A stretch of 64,000 nucleotides of DNA, taken from contig JAUSED010000008.1 in NCBI GenBank assembly GCA_030650425.1, positions 68,554 to 132,553 on the forward strand, read 5' to 3'. Source of the stretch: Candidatus Omnitrophota bacterium. GTDB taxonomy: Bacteria > Omnitrophota > Gorgyraeia > Gygaellales > Profunditerraquicolaceae. Both the position numbers and the translations under genes were made by a program. Below the pieces are notes generated by a model. The model searched no databases. It was not told the DNA's origin and was given only the letters and a program-made list of their open reading frames with translations. Position 1 is the stretch's first letter, and the number at the start of each line of letters is the position of its first letter. Positions 1 through 9,579 of the stretch are shown piece after piece.

Positions 1-1
1 C

Positions 2-826
2 TTGGATATTAGCAAGCTAAAAATCGTTTTTAACAGCAAGTGGTTTGAAAAAATGAAGGGCCAAGAGTTCGGGATGCTGCTTACCCACTATACAGCTAAT
101 AAAATGCTAGATCGTGAAGATTTTAGTCAGAGAAGGGCTAACAAAAAACCCGTATATATATCTGAGTTTATTTACCCCATACTTCAAGGGTATGATTCGG
201 TAATGCTTAAGGCAGATGTGGAATTAGGCGGGACCGACCAGATATTTAACCTTTTAGTTGGACGCGACCTGCAGGTGGATTTTAAACAACCTCAGCAGGT
301 AGTCATAACTATGCCGCTTTTAGAAGGGACCGACGGCGTCCAGAAAATGAGTAAGTCCTACGCTAACTATATCGGCATAAGTGAACCGACTAAAGAGATC
401 TTCGGAAAGATTATGTCTATCTCCGACGAGCTTATGCTAAAATATTACGAATTATTGACCGATGAAAATATGGATAGTATCAGAAAAATGCATCCTAAGC
501 AAGCCAAGGTAAATTTAGCTAAGCTGATCATCGCGCAATACCATTCAAAACCTGCCGCGGAAAAAGAGGCCGTGGAATTTGAGCGCGTCTTCTCGCAAAA
601 AGAAATACCGCAGGAAATCATCAAGTTTAAAACTGACGGTAAGAAAAAGATTATCATTATTCTTACTGAGAGCGGGCTGGCCGCAAGCGGTAACGAAGCC
701 CGTAGATTAATTAAGCAGGGAGCGGTAACCTTCGATAGCCAAAAAATAGAAAAGGAAGATTTTACGCCCAAGACGAGCGGTATTCTTAAGGCCGGCTCTC
801 GCAGGTTCTTGAAGATTATAATATGA
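2..826 (+). CDS. tyrS: tyrosine--tRNA ligase, C-terminal portion (5' end lies outside the window)
   Basis: KMSKS class-I aaRS signature (VQKMSKSYANYIG); GGTDQ motif; C-terminal S4-like domain (EARRLIKQGAVTFDSQKI). The ORF runs into the window edge. Confidence 0.8.
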   Translation: MDISKLKIVFNSKWFEKMKGQEFGMLLTHYTANKMLDREDFSQRRANKKPVYISEFIYPILQGYDSVMLKADVELGGTDQIFNLLVGRDLQVDFKQPQQVVITMPLLEGTDGVQKMSKSYANYIGISEPTKEIFGKIMSISDELMLKYYELLTDENMDSIRKMHPKQAKVNLAKLIIAQYHSKPAAEKEAVEFERVFSQKEIPQEIIKFKTDGKKKIIIILTESGLAASGNEARRLIKQGAVTFDSQKIEKEDFTPKTSGILKAGSRRFLKIII

Positions 827-1083
827 TCTCCACCCTCATCGGCTTAAGCGCCGCCACCTTAACTATGTTTTCCTTTATCCCGCAGATAGCTAGAGCGCTG
901 CGGACTAAATCTGTCAAAGATGTCAGCCCGGTTACCTTGTTTCAGCTTTCGCTGGGGGTGTGCTTATGGATAATCTACGGGGTTTTACGGAAAGATCCGG
1001 TAATCATAACCGCGAATGTGGTAACTTTAATCAGCCTGGGAATACTCATATTTTTGTTTTTTAAATATGGGAGAGAAAAATGA
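823..1083 (+). CDS. SemiSWEET / PQ-loop sugar transporter (about 86 aa, 3 TM)
   Basis: 86-aa hydrophobic protein with a PQ motif (FIPQIARAL) and the [11 protein letters not shown] / ANVVTL pattern, very close to characterised bacterial SemiSWEETs. Start overlaps the tyrS stop. Confidence 0.8.
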
Positions 1084-1946
1084 AAGGGATAATCTTAGCC
1101 GGCGGTAAAGCTACGCGGCTTTACCCGATTACTAAAGGTATATGTAAACAGCTGCTGCCTATTTACGATAAACCGATGATTTATTATCCGCTTTCGGTTT
1201 TAATGCTGGCTGGGATTAGGGATATTTTAGTTATTTCTACGCTTAAAGATACTCCTCGGTTTCGGGACTTGTTGGGAGACGGGAGGGGCCTGGGGATCAG
1301 ACTTTCTTATGCCGTGCAGCCTGAGCCAAAAGGCATTGCTCAAAGTTTTATTATCGCCGAAGAATTCATCGGCAGAGAGAGCGTTTCGCTTATTTTAGGA
1401 GATAATGTATTCTACGGCCATAATTTAAGCGAGCTCTTGCGGGAGGCGGCCAAGCTAAAAAACGGGGCGCTGGTTTTTGGTTATTATGTTAAAGACCCAG
1501 GCCGTTACGGCGTGGTTGAATTTAATAAAAAATGCAAGGTGGTTTCTATCGCGGAAAAGCCCAGGAAGCCAAAATCAAATTGGGTGGTTTCGGGGTTATA
1601 TTTTTATGATAACAAAGTCGTGGATATTGCCAAGAAACTCAGGCCTTCCAGCCGCGGAGAACTGGAAATCACTTCGGTTAATAATGAATACATCAAACGC
1701 GGAAAACTGAAGGTGCAATTTCTCGGCCGGGGCCACGCTTGGCTCGATACAGGCACCTACGAATCTTTGATTGATGCCTCCATCTTTATTAAGACGATCG
1801 AGGAGAGGCAGGGGTTAAAGATCGGCTGTATTGAAGAGGTTAGCTATCGCATGGGATATATCAATAAAAAACAACTTTTTAACTTAGCTAACCAGATACC
1901 TACAAGCTACGGCGAATATTTAAAGGATTTACTGAAGCAGCAGTAG
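1080..1946 (+). CDS. rmlA: glucose-1-phosphate thymidylyltransferase
   Basis: [16 protein letters not shown]...[17 protein letters not shown], the canonical RmlA/RfbA N-terminus. Length 288 aa. ATGA overlap with the upstream gene. Confidence 0.92.
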
Positions 1947-1953
1947 GGAAGCG

Positions 1954-2012
1954 GCAGTAGGGGACACTTTCCTACGTTCGTTTACTGCTTGTTGGAAAGT
2001 GTCCCCTACTGC
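1954..2012. repeat. perfect 19-bp inverted repeat (GCAGTAGGGGACACTTTCC ... GGAAAGTGTCCCCTACTGC) around a 21-nt loop, immediately after the rmlA stop
   Basis: Read directly from sequence. The arms are exact reverse complements. No downstream U-tract. Confidence 0.9.
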
Positions 2013-2023
2013 TGTCGAAGTCT

Positions 2024-2040
2024 GGAAAATGTCCCCTAGG
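2024..2040. repeat. third, degenerate copy of the same arm (GGAAAATGTCCCCTAGG) 11 nt after the hairpin
   Basis: Matches the right arm at 14 of 17 positions. Lies just upstream of the next start codon. Confidence 0.6.
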
Positions 2041-2048
2041 ATGCTAAA

Positions 2049-2870
2049 ATGAACAAAAAAATCCTTATACTGGGTAAAGGCTTTATCGGCGAGAGGCTGC
2101 AAAGGGCGCTGAATTGCCGGATTTCCGGAAAATTCATAAGATCTTTTGCTGATGCCGATAAAATAATCAGGCAATATAAACCTAGGGTAATCATTAATTG
2201 TATCGGTATAACGGGAAAGAGGAATGTTGATGATTGCGAACTGGAAAAAGACACAACTTTACTGGCAAATAGTTTTGTCCCGTTAATGCTGGCGGAAGCC
2301 GCGCTGCGTAATAATATCAAGCTGGTGCATATCTCTACCGGCTGTATATTTAATTTTGATTACGCTAGAAATAAGCCCATTAAAGAAGAAACTCTGCCGG
2401 ATTTTTTTGATTTATTCTATAGCCGTTCCAAGATTTATTCGGATATAGCGTTAGAAGCGTTAAGTAAGAAATACAATATTTTAATCGCACGCCTGCGTAT
2501 CCCGCTATTAAATGAATCTCATCCCAAAAACCTTCTGGATAAATTGATCAAGTATAAGCAAGTAATCGATATCCCCAATTCCGTAACCTATATCCCTGAT
2601 TTTGTCCGAGCGCTAAAACACTTGATTAAAATTAATGCCAGAGGATCCTATAACATAGTTAATAAGGGAGGCTTGCGGTATCCTAAACTTATGGATATAT
2701 ATAAAAAACATGTTCCCGGTTTTAGTTATGAAAAAATAGATTTCCATAAATTGAGTTTGACTCGCACAAATCTAATTATGTCCACGCGTAAACTTGAAAA
2801 GAGCGGTTTTAAAGTCCGTAAGATTGATTCTGTGTTGGAAGAATGCGTAAAAGAATACCTAAAATCTTAG
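2049..2870 (+). CDS. RmlD-family NAD(P)-dependent sugar-nucleotide reductase (dTDP-4-dehydro-6-deoxyhexose reductase-like)
   Basis: N-terminal Rossmann ILILGKGFIGERL; 273 aa; sugar-nucleotide-binding (RmlD-type) layout; sits between rmlA and rmlB. Confidence 0.55.
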   Translation: MNKKILILGKGFIGERLQRALNCRISGKFIRSFADADKIIRQYKPRVIINCIGITGKRNVDDCELEKDTTLLANSFVPLMLAEAALRNNIKLVHISTGCIFNFDYARNKPIKEETLPDFFDLFYSRSKIYSDIALEALSKKYNILIARLRIPLLNESHPKNLLDKLIKYKQVIDIPNSVTYIPDFVRALKHLIKINARGSYNIVNKGGLRYPKLMDIYKKHVPGFSYEKIDFHKLSLTRTNLIMSTRKLEKSGFKVRKIDSVLEECVKEYLKS

Positions 2871-3886
2871 TCACCGGAGGCGCGGGGTTTATCGCTAGCG
2901 CCTTTGCGCGATCAGTCATTGCGAGGAGCGAAGCGACGAAGCAATCTCCGTTTCTTCAGGTTATAGTTGTCGATAACCTCACCTACGCCGGCGATTTAAA
3001 ACGCCTCGGACGAAAAAGGGGACTGTCCCCGAAGGGGACTGTCCCCTTTTTCTATAAGGTAGATATTTGCGACAAAAAACAAATTGCGCGTATCTTTAAA
3101 AAAGAAAAACCTGATATCGTGGTTAACTTTGCCGCCGAAACCCACGTCGATAGAAGTATCTTAGATGGAGACAAATTTCTCACGACAAATATTCTCGGTA
3201 CACAAAACCTACTGGAAGCGGCCAAGGAATTTGGCATAAGCCGTTTTGTGCATATTTCAACCGATGAAGTTTATGGGGATATAAAAAGAGGCAGGTTTAC
3301 GGAGAATTCTCCTTTAAATCCAAGTTCACCGTATTCCGCGAGCAAGGCCAGCGCGGATTTATTGGTTAAATCATATATCAGGACCTACAAATTCCCAGCT
3401 ATAATCGTCCGTCCTTCCAATAATTACGGGCCTTGGCAATATCCCGAAAAATTAATTCCGGTAATAATTTACAAAGCTATAAAAAATGAAAAAGTTCCTA
3501 TTTATGCCAAAGGCTTGAATGTGCGCGAATGGCTCTATGTTGATGATTGCGCCAGCGCGATTTCAAAAATATTGGAAAAGGGTAAACCCGGTGAAATTTA
3601 TAATATCGGTTCAGGAAACGAATGTAAGAATATCGAAGTGGTAAAGAAAATTCTTGATATTTTGGGAAAACCGCATAGCCTGATTAAATTCGTCCAGGAC
3701 CGTCCCGGCCATGATATCCGTTATTCTCTGGATTCTTCTAAGATAAGAAGAGAACTTGGTTGGTCGCCGGAGATAAGCTTTGATACAGGGATTAAAAAAA
3801 CAGTTAATTGGTATGTCGCTAACTTCTCTTGGCTTGAAACAAAGGCTAAAATTTTAAGAAATTACTGGAAGAAGGTGTATAAATAA
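2843..3886 (+). CDS. rmlB: dTDP-glucose 4,6-dehydratase
   Basis: [12 protein letters not shown]...[11 protein letters not shown]...[12 protein letters not shown]...[14 protein letters not shown], the RmlB hallmarks. Carries an in-frame palindromic segment at 3013-3051. Confidence 0.88.
3013..3051. repeat. 39-nt near-perfect palindrome inside rmlB: A5-GGGGACTGTCCCC-GAA-GGGGACTGTCCCC-T5 (two tandem 13-nt self-complementary units)
   Basis: Read directly. Each 13-mer is its own reverse complement around a central T. Encodes ...[15 protein letters not shown]... in a loop that is only about 4 aa longer than in E. coli RmlB. Confidence 0.85.
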
Positions 3887-4944
3887 TGGCGATTGTCTTA
3901 GTTACCGGTTCTTGCGGTTTAATCGGCTCTGAAACCGTAAGTTTCTTCGCCGAAAAAGGTTTTGATGTTGTGGGAATTGATAATAATATGCGTAAGTTAT
4001 TTTTCGGAGAAGACGGTTCCGTGCTTTGGAACCTAATGCGCATTAAGGCAAAATATAAGAACTACAAACATTATTCCGCGGATATCCGACGAGAAAATCA
4101 AATTAATAAAATATTTAAAAAATATGCTTCAGATATCGCGCTAATCGTCCATGCCGCGGCCCAGCCTTCACACGATTGGGCAGCCAAAGATCCGATGATC
4201 GATTTTGGGGTGAACGCGGCCGGAACATTGATTCTTCTGGAAGCCTTGCGTAAGTTCTGCCCTCAAGCGGTTTTCATTTTTATCTCTACCAATAAAGTTT
4301 ACGGTGATACTCCGAACCGCCTGCCGCTGATTGAAAGAGAAAAGCGTTTTGAGCTTCCGACAGATCATAAATTTTATAAAGGGATTGATGAATCGATGAA
4401 TATTGATCAGTCTCTGCATTCGGTTTTCGGGGCGTCAAAGGTAAGCGCTGATATTATGACTCAGGAATACGGCAGGTATTTTGGGCTTAAAACCGGCATA
4501 TTCCGCGGCGGCTGCCTTACCGGCCCGTTACATTCCGGAGCCCAATTACACGGTTTCTTGTCTTATTTTGTAAAATGCGCAATTACCGGCCGTAAATATA
4601 TGATTTACGGGTATAAAGGCAAACAGGTGCGGGATAATATTCATTCCTACGATTTGGTGAATGCGTTTTATCATTTCTTCAAAGCGCCGCGCTCCGGCCA
4701 AGTATATAACATCGGCGGCAGCAGGCTTGCCAATATTTCCATCTTAGAGGCGATTGATTTGTGCGAAAAAATAAGCGGCAGGAAATTTAATTATGAATAC
4801 GTGGATAAAAACAGGATCGGCGACCATATCTGGTGGATAAGCGACGTCTCCAAATTCAAATCGCATTATCCCGGATGGCAATACAAATTCGGCATAGAGG
4901 ATACGATGCAACAGATTTACCAAGCGCAGAAAGAATTGTTATGA
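3886..4944 (+). CDS. NAD-dependent epimerase/dehydratase (extended SDR, CDP-paratose/tyvelose 2-epimerase-like)
   Basis: [13 protein letters not shown]; [11 protein letters not shown]; [11 protein letters not shown] (YxxxK). 352 aa. Confidence 0.6.
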
Positions 4945-5978
4945 AATATAAAAGTTTACTGATTACCGGCGGCGCGGGTTTTATCGGCAGCAACTTAGCG
5001 GTCTATTTTAAGCGTAAATTTCCGTTTCTTAAGGTGTTTGTTTTAGATAATCTGGTGCGCCGGGGAAGTGAATTTAATTTGCCGCGGCTTAAAGAAAACG
5101 GCATTAAATTTATCCGCGGGGATATTCGGCGTCCTAAAGACCTTGATTTGAAGTTTGAAATAGACTTGATATTGGAATGTTCTGCGGAGCCCTCGGTATT
5201 GGCAGGTTATCAGAATCCAGCCTATATTATTGACACAAATCTGATCGGCACGGTTAATTGCCTTGAGTTGTGCCGCAAGCGTAAAGCGGGGATGATTTTT
5301 CTTTCTACCAGCAGGGTTTATCCTTATGAAAAAATAAACGCGATTAGGCGCCTGGAAACAAAAAGCAGGTTTGAATGGCCGCGTTCTTCCGGTATTGGCG
5401 CGGATTTTTCTCTGACCGGACCAAAGACTTTATACGGCGCGACTAAACTGGCGTCGGAATTCATCCTTCAGGAGTATATTGCCGCATACGGCATCAGAGC
5501 GGTTGTGAATCGTTGCGCAGTGGTTGCCGGACCGTGGCAGTTTGGCAAGGTTGACCAAGGTGTGTTTACCTACTGGATGCTGGCGCACTATTTTAAGAAA
5601 CCGCTTAAATATATCGGTTTTGGCGGGCAGGGAAAGCAGGTGCGCGATCTTTTACACGTTGATGACCTTTGCCGGTTAATTGGCTTGCAGGCAAACATCC
5701 TTTCTCAATTAAGCGGTAATACCTATAATGTCGGCGGCGCAAGAGAGGTAAGCCTTTCTTTGTTGGAGGCCACCGCGCTTTGCCGGCAGATTACCGGTAA
5801 CAAGATTAAAGTAGGACGAAACCCGCGTAACCGGCCGGGAGATATCGCGATATACCTTACAGACAACCAGAAAGTTACCCGGGAACTGAAATGGAAACCG
5901 CAGAAGCCGGCAGCAATGATTCTAAATGATATCTTTAACTGGATTAGAGATAATGAATCACAGCTAAGAGAGCTATAG
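4941..5978 (+). CDS. NAD-dependent epimerase/dehydratase (CDP-paratose 2-epimerase-like), paralogue of the previous gene
   Basis: [18 protein letters not shown]...[14 protein letters not shown]...YGATKLASE. Start taken at ATG 4941 (ATGA overlap) rather than the upstream in-frame extension in the ORF track. Confidence 0.65.
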
Positions 5979-5984
5979 TGAATA

Positions 5985-6725
5985 ATGCTTAAGGATACAC
6001 TCCGCAAGCGTTTTATTGCCGTCGAATCCGACACTCTGGTTATCGAAACAATCCAAACCGAATCAAAAACCCTCCGTCAGCGCCTACGCGTGCTTAGGCT
6101 TAAAGGCACTTGGCGCGCTAATATCCAGAATGAGCTTTGTTTTGATGCTGTCCTGCGTAGGGGTCCGCCGGAGCACTATTCCTTCAAAGGAACTTGGAAG
6201 TTAAACAATAACCAACAGATCGAATATAACTGCGGCGAAGGCCCGGACGTCTTGACCTTCAAAGGCCACTGGGGTATATCTTCGGCTAATCGGCTTGTTT
6301 ATGCTTTGGAAGGCAGTTCAACCTCGCGTTTTGAATTTAAAGTCCAGCTTGAATCGTCAACACTTTATCCTAAAGCAGGCCAGATCCGCTACCGTATTGG
6401 CATAGGCGCGCGGAAAAATCGCCTGACTGCGGCAGGCCAGATGCTTATTCTTTATGGCGAATGGAAGTTTGGCCGCGATTTGGGGTTAATTTTCCAGATG
6501 AATTATGGGCAAGGAAGAGTTAAATCTATTGTTTTTGGGGCAGAGGTGACCTTTGATCACAATAAGCTTATTTTCGCGCTTAGAAATGAGTTTGGCGAGA
6601 CTTTAGGCCTAACCCTTACTATGACGCATCAATTCTTAGAAGATCTTGATACCGAAGCCTTTATCAGGCTGAAATCCCGCCGCAATGAACAGGCAATAGA
6701 AGTCGGAATAACCATTCCTTTTTGA
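5985..6725 (+). CDS. hypothetical protein, no recognisable domain (246 aa; soluble, predicted beta-rich)
   Basis: Clean ORF with coding-like composition. No motif I can assign. Confidence 0.4.
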   Translation: MLKDTLRKRFIAVESDTLVIETIQTESKTLRQRLRVLRLKGTWRANIQNELCFDAVLRRGPPEHYSFKGTWKLNNNQQIEYNCGEGPDVLTFKGHWGISSANRLVYALEGSSTSRFEFKVQLESSTLYPKAGQIRYRIGIGARKNRLTAAGQMLILYGEWKFGRDLGLIFQMNYGQGRVKSIVFGAEVTFDHNKLIFALRNEFGETLGLTLTMTHQFLEDLDTEAFIRLKSRRNEQAIEVGITIPF

Positions 6726-6739
6726 GCAAAAAACACTTT

Positions 6740-6816
6740 ATTCCCAAGGCTTTAATGATATAATATTAATTCTTAATAATGCCGTCATTGTGAGCGATCG
6801 ATTCCATTATAATGAA
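6740..6816 (+). promoter_or_regulatory. AT-rich intergenic region with candidate sigma70-type promoters (TTTATT-N16-TATAAT near 6743-6770; second TATAAT inside the palindrome CATTATAATG near 6806-6815)
   Basis: One of only a few intergenic gaps of about 100 nt. Hexamers read by eye. Confidence 0.35.
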
Positions 6817-6824
6817 GGTTTAAT

Positions 6825-7559
6825 ATGTCAAAACACTATGGTTGGTTACCGGACATTCCGGATAAGCGCGATTTACTCTACAGCGCCATCAAGCCCCGCG
6901 TCAGGCTTCTTCCTAAAGTTGACTTACGCGCAAGCTGTTCGCAAGTTGAACAGCAGGGAAAATTAGGCAGCTGTACCGCCAATGCCCTTGCAGGGAACAT
7001 TGAATATCTGGATAATCTTGTTGATTCAACTTATACCGATGTCAGCCGTCTTTTTATTTATTATAACGAAAGAGAGCTTGAATACACGCAAGATTATGAT
7101 GCCGGGGCATCTTTGCGCGACGGTATAAAAACTTTGAGGAAAACCGGTTATTGCTGGGAGAAAACTTGGCCTTATAAAATCGCCTTATTTGATCAAAAGC
7201 CGCCGCTTCGCTGTTATGAAGAAGCCAAACAGCATTGTATCCAATCTTACCACCGAATTAATAATTTACTGGAGATGCTGGTTTGTTTGAGTCAAGGCTA
7301 TCCTTTTGTTTTTGGTTTTACCGTTTACGAAAGTTTTGAGAGCCTAGCCGTAAAACGCTCCGGCGTGGCGAATATGCCTAAAAGAGGAGAACGCGTTTTA
7401 GGAGGGCACGCGGTGATGGCAGTCGGCTACAATCAGCAAGAGAAGCGTTTTCTGGCGCGTAATTCCTGGGGGAGGCAATGGGGTAAGCAAGGTTATTTCA
7501 CCATGCCTTTTGAATATCTGGAAAGCTTAGCCGCCGATTTTTGGACGATACGGAAATAG
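6825..7559 (+). CDS. papain-like (C1 family) cysteine peptidase, cytoplasmic (no signal peptide)
   Basis: Catalytic-triad context: QGKLGSCTANA (Gln/Cys), GGHAVMAVGY (His), NSWG (Asn-Trp). 244 aa. Confidence 0.7.
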   Translation: MSKHYGWLPDIPDKRDLLYSAIKPRVRLLPKVDLRASCSQVEQQGKLGSCTANALAGNIEYLDNLVDSTYTDVSRLFIYYNERELEYTQDYDAGASLRDGIKTLRKTGYCWEKTWPYKIALFDQKPPLRCYEEAKQHCIQSYHRINNLLEMLVCLSQGYPFVFGFTVYESFESLAVKRSGVANMPKRGERVLGGHAVMAVGYNQQEKRFLARNSWGRQWGKQGYFTMPFEYLESLAADFWTIRK

Positions 7560-7568
7560 AGGAGTAAA

Positions 7569-9579
<2,011 letters not shown>

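What the first reader, a model, noticed from the sequence alone, without database searches (positions are those of the whole stretch)
3013..3051. 39-nt near-perfect palindrome embedded in frame inside rmlB
AAAAAGGGGACTGTCCCC-GAA-GGGGACTGTCCCCTTTTT consists of two tandem copies of a 13-nt self-complementary unit flanked by A5/T5. A palindrome of this length is very unlikely by chance in a coding region. It encodes a lysine/arginine/glycine-rich surface loop ([15 protein letters not shown]) only about 4 residues longer than the equivalent E. coli RmlB loop. Possibilities are a miniature palindromic insertion (MITE/REP-like) tolerated in a loop, a protein-binding site, or an RNA structure causing translational pausing. 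Its GGGGAC/GTCCCC core is shared with the intergenic hairpin at 1954-2012.
Basis: seen in the sequence. Interest (0 to 1): 0.6.

Follow-up and report, generated by a model that had tools for sequence, protein, structure and literature searches.

The report
REP-like palindrome inserted in-frame in rmlB
A 39-base hairpin-forming repeat, of a family that elsewhere flanks its own transposase-like gene, sits in frame in a floppy surface loop of a sugar-nucleotide enzyme of an uncultivated Omnitrophota bacterium, and the same family has entered this and other housekeeping genes repeatedly.

Summary
Window 3013-3051 reads AAAAA-GGGGACTGTCCCC-GAA-GGGGACTGTCCCC-TTTTT. It lies in frame (codons 58-70) in an intact dTDP-glucose 4,6-dehydratase (RmlB) of a Candidatus Omnitrophota MAG.

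It is an insertion: the closest RmlB homologues (73-76% identity) lack it. The same doublet is found at the DNA level:
- in the same loop of distant RmlBs;
- decayed, in all three frames and both orientations, in a second RmlB loop (28 of 120 homologues carry this or a second palindrome);
- in frame in MiaB-like, MetRS, UvrC, CobQ and glycosyltransferase genes of Omnitrophota, Patescibacteria and Planctomycetota;
- in intergenic, terminator-like positions.

The family has a fixed polarity (T centres with a GNA spacer), and its long hairpin shows compensatory changes. In Planctomycetota contigs, doublets of the unit flank a Y1 (RAYT-type) transposase gene on both sides. In 21 of 80 metagenomic RAYT loci a single unit caps a hairpin just upstream of the gene.

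Best reading: a REP/REPIN-type selfish palindrome tolerated in a disordered loop, working like Rickettsia palindromic elements. Not shown: a RAYT or further copies in the source genome, or any effect on rmlB expression. It is a new variant of a known kind, of moderate interest.

The parts
3013..3051 (+). 39-nt palindromic element (REP doublet): A5 flank 3013-3017, unit 1 GGGGACTGTCCCC 3018-3030, spacer GAA 3031-3033, unit 2 GGGGACTGTCCCC 3034-3046, T5 flank 3047-3051. It encodes K58-F70 of RmlB.
   Evidence: sequence, chance, fold. Absent from the nearest homologues. Same doublet in L003, L004, L120, L066 and others. Stop-free in all six frames.
2843..3886 (+). Host gene rmlB (dTDP-glucose 4,6-dehydratase, 347 aa), apparently intact.
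   Evidence: 1bxk, E = 2e-94. (100% identical to an NCBI 'Candidatus Omnitrophota' MAG protein on a 288-kb contig). (catalytic and NAD motifs invariant). (AlphaFold mean pLDDT 84.6; residues 49-65 below 50).
2918..2945 (+). Second, unrelated palindromic insert in RmlB loop 1: ATTGCGA-GGAGCGAAGCGAC-GAAGCAAT (peptide IARSEATKQ). The outer stem ATTGC/GCAAT is conserved and the inner hairpin varies between copies.
   Evidence: 1 match, 0.01 expected. Absent from P0003/L001 rmlB. The inner stem covaries in L002, L004, L008, L001, L126 and L096. The identical 28-mer occurs in a Deltaproteobacteria MAG (L096 5907). The window copy itself does not fold better than shuffles (z = +0.6).
1954..2012 (+). 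Intergenic REPIN-like hairpin between rmlA and rmlD: two inverted copies of GTAGGGGACACTTTCC (22-nt arms, 15-nt spacer).
   Evidence: I1, 95% complementary. (-47.7 kcal/mol, z = -5.7).. In most relatives rmlA and rmlD overlap with no spacer. L002 carries a doublet of the variant unit GTGACTGTCAC at the same junction.
2024..2038 (-). Third, single copy of the intergenic REP-like unit (CTAGGGGACATTTTCC on the minus strand).
   Evidence: (I12).

Best explanation
The 39-nt palindrome is a copy of a short, oriented, hairpin-forming repeat family with consensus GGGGACTGTCCCC-GNA-GGGGACTGTCCCC plus complementary flanks. The family behaves like REP/REPIN elements. In other lineages the same units flank a RAYT-type Y1 (HUH) transposase gene or sit just upstream of it, which is the signature of REPs and the enzyme thought to mobilise them on single-stranded DNA.

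One copy landed in, or was copied into, rmlB in the lineage of this Omnitrophota genome. It survived for three reasons: the net change is a multiple of three, the element has no stop codon in any frame, and the site is a disordered surface loop between helix 49-54 and strand 69-72 of the Rossmann domain. The enzyme simply carries about six extra residues.

**Shown:**
- it is an insertion;
- it belongs to the family;
- the family has a fixed polarity and a covarying hairpin;
- the family is associated with RAYT genes in Planctomycetota and in metagenomic contigs;
- copies recur in frame in RmlB and in other housekeeping genes, and old copies decay.

**Inferred:**
- a RAYT mobilised this particular copy;
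- insertion happened on the lagging-strand template;
- the copy is neutral or nearly so for rmlB.

A side effect is likely but untested. The mRNA has a -33 kcal/mol hairpin followed by U5. This would behave as a terminator or pause site only when translation is uncoupled from transcription.
For: **1. It is an insertion.** P0003 (76% identity), P0002 and P0004 (73%) lack the segment. The codon alignment shows about 6 extra codons.

**2. The same DNA occurs elsewhere in RmlB.**
- L003 and L004 are only 61-63% identical to the window at the protein level, with third-codon identity 0.42. Yet they carry the doublet in the same loop with 28-29 of 29 core bases identical.
- Their flanks differ but stay complementary: A4/T4 in L003, AATT/AATT in L004.
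- Decayed copies lie in loop 1 of L003, L005, L006 and L215.
- 28 of 120 homologues carry peptides derived from this element or from element A. The peptides appear as GDCP, GLSP and GTVP (the three frames) and as GDSP and GQSP (the reverse orientation).
- The distribution on an NJ tree is patchy.

**3. The family is dispersed.**
- Extra units occur within the same 8 kb in many loci, up to 10.
- In-frame copies lie inside Pfam-confirmed MiaB-like, MetRS, UvrC, GT4 and CobQ genes.
- Intergenic copies with A-run/T-run flanks look like bidirectional terminators.

**4. Shared polarity.** After orienting doublets to T centres, the spacer is GCA, GAA or GGA in 33 of 48 and never the reverse complement.

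**5. Covariation of the long hairpin.** 10 of 17 pairs change on both sides, and 0 of 500 shuffles reach this. L214 keeps the hairpin through two compensatory double changes.

**6. RAYT link.**
- In L097 a Y1_Tnp gene (Pfam E = 3e-15) has units and doublets on both sides.
- Its 65%-identical relative in L207-L212 has two doublets upstream and two downstream.
- In 21 of 80 metagenomic RAYT loci (17 exact; about 0.3 exact expected by my own back-of-envelope estimate for roughly 70% G+C, not a tool result) GGGACWGTCCC caps a variable-stem hairpin about 100-170 nt upstream of the gene.
- The literature describes RAYTs as typically flanked by REPINs, and REP doublets as flanked by A and T runs (PMC3337134).

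**7. Tolerance.** AlphaFold gives pLDDT below 50 for residues 49-65, with coil over 55-68. The element is stop-free in six frames.

**8. Orientation.** GC skew is positive across the whole window, so the strand with the GNA-loop hairpin is the lagging-strand template (inference).
Against: - No RAYT gene is found in the 64-kb window (tblastn).
- The window holds no second copy of the element, at the DNA or the peptide level. The defining multi-copy property is therefore unverified for the source genome, and the rest of that genome could not be read.
- No Omnitrophota RAYT flanked by this unit was found. The one RAYT seen in an Omnitrophota relative (L008) is flanked by different inverted repeats (GTAGACAGT...).
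- The two units here are in direct orientation (T,T). A classical REPIN, and the RAYT-flanking doublets in L207, have them inverted.
- No target-site duplication is visible. The insertion is accompanied by loss of about 4 ancestral residues, so the event was not a clean cut-and-paste.
- In about 162 kb of Omnitrophota rml neighbourhoods the perfect units are found only in rmlB. This could mean site preference, or some rml-specific role.
- L003 and L004 keep perfect copies despite saturated synonymous sites. A purely neutral relic would be expected to decay.
- Cross-phylum occurrence could be inflated by chance among very many GC-rich hairpins, because the genome scan was selected on the motif and truncated.
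Confidence: 0.68

Rival explanations
1. The hairpin is a selected cis-regulatory RNA or DNA element of the rml operon. It would be an intragenic, translation-dependent attenuator or terminator, an exonuclease barrier, or a ribosome-pausing site that tunes rmlB expression. It may have been co-opted from a REP.
For: The stem is very stable, and a U5 tract follows it. The minus-strand half scores as terminator-like. Three palindromic elements lie within 1954-3051 and none in the other 63 kb. Perfect units in 162 kb of relatives' rml regions occur only in rmlB. L003 and L004 retain 28 of 29 bases despite third-position identity of 0.49. The long hairpin shows compensatory changes. REP doublets with A/T runs have been proposed as co-opted attenuators (PMC3337134).
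Against: The closest relatives lack it. Its position varies between two loops, three frames and both orientations. Many copies are visibly decaying (L003 loop 1, L006, L008, L215, P0109). The same element sits in unrelated genes and phyla. No Rfam family matches. A terminator 170 nt into an essential-pathway gene would be costly.
Confidence: 0.13
2. The palindrome arose locally, without a transposase. Candidate routes are templated repair, template switching or gene conversion from a nearby terminator-like hairpin, followed by arm-to-arm correction. These are processes that create and perfect quasi-palindromes.
For: There is no target-site duplication, and the insertion replaces about 4 ancestral residues. 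The ancestral loop is AT-rich with an AAAGG..AAATTT microhomology to the element's flanks. The flanks always extend the palindrome with locus-specific sequence. Both units of a doublet change in concert in variants (GAGACTGTCTC x2, GTGACTGTCAC x2, GGGGTCAG(A/T)TCCC x2).
Against: De novo origin cannot explain the identical oriented 29-mer with a GNA spacer in many genomes and phyla. It also cannot explain its clustering around RAYT genes. Gene conversion from another genomic copy remains compatible with family membership.
Confidence: 0.12
3. The segment is selected at the protein level (a Lys/Arg/Gly/Pro-rich loop with a function in RmlB), or it is a double-stranded binding site for a regulator.
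For: The loop lies next to the NAD-binding Rossmann core and is basic. Each 13-mer is a dyad of the kind dimeric regulators bind.
Against: Homologues use all three frames and both orientations, giving unrelated peptides. The loop is predicted to be disordered. Nucleotides, not amino acids, are what is conserved. No regulator or motif family was identified.
Confidence: 0.04
4. It is a chance palindrome or an assembly artefact.
For: The window comes from a metagenome-assembled genome. Palindromes can arise from chimeric reads.
Against: The expected number is about 1e-4 per window. The reading frame is intact. The same element sits at the same loop in independent assemblies from NCBI, ENA and Logan.
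Confidence: 0.01

Closest known systems
REP / REPIN elements and their RAYT (REP-associated tyrosine transposase) genes (Nunvar 2010; Bertels & Rainey 2011, PMC3116915, PMC3337134; Messing 2012, PMC3479197)
   Same: It is a short GC-rich imperfect palindrome, organised as doublets that fold into one hairpin. A and T runs flank the doublet. Several dispersed copies occur per genome in several lineages. Subfamilies show compensatory variation. Units flank a Y1_Tnp/RAYT-like gene on both sides (L097, L207-L212) or cap a hairpin just upstream of it (21 of 80 metagenomic loci).
   Different: This copy is intragenic and in frame, whereas REPs are by definition extragenic. The doublet is far more compact than described REPINs: 29-39 nt against an 89-bp example. 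The two units here are direct rather than inverted, and each unit is itself a dyad. There is no GTAG-type 5' tetranucleotide. The same core recurs across phyla, whereas, from my own knowledge of the literature, described REPs are species-specific. No RAYT or second copy has been shown in the source genome.
Rickettsia palindromic elements (RPE; Ogata et al. 2000, cited in PMC3184786 and PMC10969869)
   Same: Both are palindromic selfish DNA inserted in frame into unrelated housekeeping genes. Both are open in the frames used, sit at sites compatible with the protein fold, recur, and decay over time.
   Different: RPEs are about 105-150 bp, specific to Rickettsia, and encode a recognisable peptide segment. 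This element is 39 nt, adds about 6-13 residues, occurs in Omnitrophota, Patescibacteria and Planctomycetota, and has a candidate mobilising enzyme. There is no sequence relationship. It works like an RPE but is not a member.
Terminator-like and other small repeats found inside genes: SPRITE of S. pneumoniae, BRE of Betaproteobacteria, ERIC/YPAL (Delihas 2011, PMC3184786)
   Same: These are small repeats that look like Rho-independent terminators or stem-loops. They are sometimes fused internally to coding sequences.
   Different: Those elements are about 100 bp or longer and restricted to a lineage. The present one is a minimal hairpin with a cross-phylum core.
Mobile GC clusters of yeast mitochondrial genomes (my own knowledge, not checked here)
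   Same: Both are short GC-rich palindromes spreading in an AT-richer genome, occasionally in frame inside protein genes such as var1.
   Different: Organellar and eukaryotic, with unrelated sequence and mechanism. This is an analogy only.

Membership tests
REP/REPIN-RAYT system | Short (about 20-40 nt) imperfect palindrome able to form a stem-loop | tested here: met
   13-nt dyad units. The 39-nt hairpin folds at -32.7 kcal/mol, z = -5.3.
REP/REPIN-RAYT system | Two REPs forming one hairpin (REP doublet, REPIN) | tested here: met
   The doublet folds as one 18-bp stem. Across 27 copies, 10 of 17 pairs show compensatory changes, and 0 of 500 shuffles reach this. Caveat: the units are direct (T,T) here. 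They are inverted in the RAYT-flanking doublets of L207.
REP/REPIN-RAYT system | Many dispersed copies in the same genome, mainly extragenic | tested here: inconclusive
In other genomes the feature is met: 10 units in 8 kb in L097, 12 in 6.6 kb in L207, 8 in L015, L021, L103 and L110.
REP/REPIN-RAYT system | A cognate RAYT (Y1/HUH transposase) gene flanked by the repeats | tested here: inconclusive
   Met for the family: L097, L207-L212 and 21 of 80 metagenomic RAYT loci. Not met in the window. Not shown for any Omnitrophota genome: the L008 RAYT has other flanking repeats.
REP/REPIN-RAYT system | Conserved 5' tetranucleotide (GTAG in enterobacterial REPs) next to the palindrome | tested here: not met
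   The flanks of the rmlB element are A5/T5. GTAG is present in the separate intergenic hairpin (GTAGGGGACAC). The feature is known for group 2 RAYT systems and may not be general.
REP/REPIN-RAYT system | RAYT-dependent cleavage or mobilisation of the element | not testable with these tools
   Needs biochemistry or genetics.
Rickettsia palindromic elements (RPE) | In-frame insertion in conserved protein genes at structurally tolerant sites | tested here: met
Rickettsia palindromic elements (RPE) | About 105-150 bp element of one of the RPE sequence families, in Rickettsia | tested here: not met
   The element is 39 nt and from the Omnitrophota phylum. RPE size is taken from PMC3184786.
Intrinsic (Rho-independent) terminator | GC-rich stem-loop followed by a U tract | tested here: met
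   18-bp stem, GAA loop, then U5. The minus-strand half is flagged by the scan. The U5 is predicted to pair with the A5.
Intrinsic (Rho-independent) terminator | Located at the end of a transcription unit and stops transcription | tested here: not met
   It lies 170 nt into a 1044-nt ORF. Its activity is not testable here.
MITE | Terminal inverted repeats derived from an IS, with a target-site duplication | tested here: not met
   No direct repeat flanks the element. The flanks are complementary, not duplicated.

The most novel reading that the evidence does not exclude
A single, ancient and oriented REP family (GGGGACTGTCCCC-GNA-GGGGACTGTCCCC), tied to one clade of RAYT transposases, is shared across several bacterial phyla. 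In Omnitrophota, Patescibacteria and Planctomycetota it routinely colonises coding sequences in frame. This would be an RPE-like process driven by a REP/RAYT system. It would reshape surface loops of housekeeping enzymes, with rmlB and the rml operon as a hot spot. It would also leave the recurrent GLSP, GTVP, GDCP, GQSP and GDSP peptide strings seen in proteins predicted from metagenomes.
Probability: 0.4. Interest if true: 0.7.

Novelty: new variant of a known kind. Interest (0 to 1): 0.55.

Why it matters
- REPs are defined as extragenic. From my own knowledge of the literature, in-frame palindromic insertions have mainly been described in Rickettsia. Here a minimal REP doublet with a candidate transposase does the same thing in uncultivated phyla. 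This extends both concepts.
- It offers a tractable system: a 13-nt core plus a small RAYT. That system could test how REPs move and why some protein loops are hit repeatedly.
- It explains a class of odd low-complexity peptide strings and loop length variation in MAG proteomes.
- It warns annotators that such strings are repeat-derived.
- It provides markers for dating insertions in Omnitrophota.
- For rmlB itself the consequence is probably small.

Tried and rejected
- **Exact-protein look-up of the source contig** failed, so the rest of the source genome could not be examined.
- **Rfam search** at E <= 1 over window 1-8000 gave only chance miRNA hits on the intergenic hairpin and nothing at 3013-3051.
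- **Literature search** for the 11-mer in either orientation found only unrelated eukaryotic primers. No paper in the library links RAYT or REP with Omnitrophota, Planctomycetes or CPR.
- **Viral contigs** have no exact canonical 29-mer, so there is no sign of phage carriage.
- **The Y1 transposase next to the rml operon in L008** was tested as the mobiliser. Its flanking inverted repeats are GTAGACAGT..., not the GGGGAC unit, so this was rejected as direct evidence.
- **A protein search with the L097 RAYT** returned only 27 hits, none labelled Omnitrophota.
- **Cross-phylum abundance from the genome scan** was rejected as proof of homology by itself. The scan was selected on the motif and truncated, and GC-rich hairpins are extremely numerous. 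The polarity test and the RAYT association were used instead.
- **The count of independent insertions from the NJ tree** is not relied on. Insert-bearing proteins share an AFVRLL-type N-terminus, which suggests shared ancestry or recombination. Only at least 4-5 events are claimed: two element types, two loops, different frames and orientations.
- **A protein-level function of the loop** was rejected because all frames occur.

Full report
**1. The observation**

Window 3013-3051 reads AAAAA GGGGACTGTCCCC GAA GGGGACTGTCCCC TTTTT. The repeat finder gives 19-nt arms, 95% complementary, around a 3-nt loop. The only mismatch is the T/T pair formed by the centres of the two 13-mers.

From base composition about 1e-4 such palindromes are expected per 64 kb, and one is found. 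The exact 13-mer occurs nowhere else in the window. As RNA the segment folds at -32.7 kcal/mol, with z = -5.3 against shuffles.

The element lies in frame in ORF 2843..3886 (+) and covers codons 58-70. This ORF is a dTDP-glucose 4,6-dehydratase: 1bxk E = 2e-94, catalytic and NAD motifs intact. It is 100% identical to a protein of a Candidatus Omnitrophota MAG.

**2. It is an insertion**

The three closest homologues (73-76% identity) have the canonical loop DLKRL..KGKFKFYK and lack the segment. A codon alignment shows about six extra codons in the window, together with replacement of about four ancestral residues. AlphaFold (mean pLDDT 84.6) places the segment in a coil between helix 49-54 and strand 69-72, with pLDDT below 50 for residues 49-65.

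**3. The same DNA recurs in RmlB**

Loop 2 copies in distant homologues:
- L003 and L004 encode RmlBs only 61-63% identical to the window's protein, with third-codon identity 0.42. They carry the doublet in the same loop with 28-29 of 29 core bases identical.
- Their flanks are different but complementary: AAAA/TTTT in L003, AATT/AATT in L004.
- L215 has a slightly decayed copy.
- L214 has a copy in which two compensatory double substitutions preserve the long hairpin.
- L008 has a concerted variant, GGGGTCAG(A/T)TCCC twice.

A second loop (loop 1) holds decayed copies in L003, L005, L006 and L215.

Among 120 homologues, 28 carry peptides explained either by this element or by a second palindrome. 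The peptides cover all three frames (GDCP, GLSP, GTVP) and the reverse orientation (GDSP, GQSP). They match the six stop-free translations of the element.

The distribution on a rough NJ tree is patchy. I claim only at least 4-5 independent events, because insert-bearing proteins share N-terminal features that could reflect common ancestry or recombination.

**4. A dispersed, oriented family**

Many loci have further units within the same 8 kb.

In low-GC genomes the doublet lies inside real genes, confirmed by Pfam:
- a MiaB-like methylthiotransferase (Omnitrophota);
- MetRS and UvrC (Patescibacteria);
- GT4 glycosyltransferases (Omnitrophota, Saccharibacteria);
- CobQ (Planctomycetia).

It also lies in intergenic spots with A-run/T-run flanks that look like bidirectional terminators (L120, L126, L004).

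The scan was selected on the motif, so abundance alone is not proof of homology. Two independent properties are:
- After orienting doublets to T centres, the spacer is GCA, GAA or GGA in 33 of 48 and never the reverse complement.
- The long hairpin shows compensatory changes at 10 of 17 pairs, and 0 of 500 shuffles reach this.

**5. Link to a transposase**

L097 is a Planctomycetota locus with ten units in 8 kb. It encodes a Y1_Tnp protein (Pfam E = 3e-15) with units and doublets on both sides. A 65%-identical relative, found on several contigs (L207-L212), has two doublets upstream and two downstream of the gene, and more beyond the next gene.

A metagenome scan with an alignment of three such proteins returned 80 loci. 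In 21 of them (17 exact; about 0.3 exact expected by my own back-of-envelope estimate for roughly 70% G+C, not a tool result), GGGACWGTCCC sits at the apex of a hairpin with a locus-specific stem, about 100-170 nt upstream of the gene.

This is the arrangement described for RAYTs and their REP/REPIN elements. The same literature notes A and T runs flanking REP doublets (PMC3337134; PMC5581495).

The window itself has no RAYT and no second copy. The one RAYT seen in an Omnitrophota relative has other flanking repeats. Mobilisation of this particular copy by a RAYT is therefore an inference.

**6. Mechanism proposed**

A REP doublet was inserted, or copied by recombination, into a tolerant loop. 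It persists because it is stop-free in every frame, the net length change is a multiple of three, and the loop is disordered. Copies then decay unless refreshed.

GC skew is positive throughout the window. The strand carrying the GNA-loop hairpin is therefore the lagging-strand template, where HUH transposases act. This is consistent with the model but is weak evidence.

The mRNA consequence, a very stable hairpin followed by U5, is probably masked by translation. A conditional terminator or pausing role cannot be excluded and is the main rival. It is helped by the clustering of three palindromic elements in 1954-3051 and by the perfect copies in L003 and L004. It is weakened by absence from the nearest relatives, the variable position and frame, the decay of many copies, and presence in unrelated genes.

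**7. Comparison with known systems**

The element works like Rickettsia palindromic elements, which insert in frame in housekeeping genes (PMC10969869, PMC3184786). It is not a member of that family by size, sequence or taxon.

By anatomy and RAYT association it fits the REP/REPIN kind. It differs in several ways: it is intragenic, extremely compact, has direct rather than inverted units in this copy, lacks a GTAG, and shares its core across phyla.

No paper in the searched library describes this sequence, and none links RAYT with these phyla.

Verdict: a real feature and a new variant of a known kind, of moderate interest.

Noticed in passing
window 2918-2945 (also L002 2543-2570, L004 4101-4137, L008 rmlB loop 1, L001 86-134, L126 3027, L096 x4): A second palindromic family lies in frame in RmlB loop 1 (peptide [11 protein letters not shown]): GTCATTGCGA-[variable GC-rich hairpin, often with a GAA loop]-GAAGCAATC. 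The outer stem is conserved and the inner stem covaries between copies. The exact 28-mer of the window recurs in a Deltaproteobacteria MAG. In L001 a copy sits in rmlD instead of rmlB.
   Followed up: partly
window 1954-2038: The 102-nt rmlA-rmlD spacer holds three copies of a GTAG-prefixed REP-like 16-mer ([G/C]TAGGGGACA[C/T]TTTCC). Two of them form a -47.7 kcal/mol hairpin. In most relatives rmlA and rmlD overlap, with no spacer. L002 has a doublet of the variant unit GTGACTGTCAC at the same junction. GCAGTAGGG is duplicated at 1938 and 1954 and includes the rmlA stop codon.
   Followed up: partly
L008 6555-8045: In an Omnitrophota relative, a RAYT-like Y1_Tnp gene has inserted just upstream of the rml operon. 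It is flanked by inverted repeats GTAGACAGT.../...ACTGTCTAC. A 60-nt direct repeat brackets an adjacent BrnT-family toxin gene and its small downstream partner ORF.
   Followed up: partly
L002 1694-2465 and 3504-4194: In the relative L002, two gene pairs interrupt the rml operon on either side of rmlB: one with a faint Zeta-toxin hit, and one with nucleotidyltransferase plus HepT-like hits. The operon appears to attract selfish elements in this phylum.
   Followed up: no
window 2843-2870 and homologous loci: rmlD and rmlB overlap by 28 nt. The first ~35 nt of rmlB (ATGCGTAAAAGAATACCTAAAAT...) are nearly identical at the DNA level across homologues that are otherwise only ~60% identical. This is probably dual-coding constraint.
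   Followed up: no
window 1-64000: GC skew is positive in every 2-kb bin and its cumulative curve rises monotonically. The whole window therefore lies on one replichore, with the + strand as the leading-strand sequence.
   Followed up: no
L213 2860-2940: Upstream of another RAYT relative (P0125) there is no GGGGAC unit. Instead there is a tandem array of GTACCCGGTACAC(C/T)T repeats. This suggests that different RAYT relatives pair with different repeats.
   Followed up: no
L006 7042-7100 and 12137-12165: Two copies of a longer repeat, GGGA(T/C)T(G/C)TCCCC(C/T)TCTCTGGCTAATCC. One lies inside a B12-binding radical SAM gene together with a second GGGGGCTGTCCCC unit.
   Followed up: no
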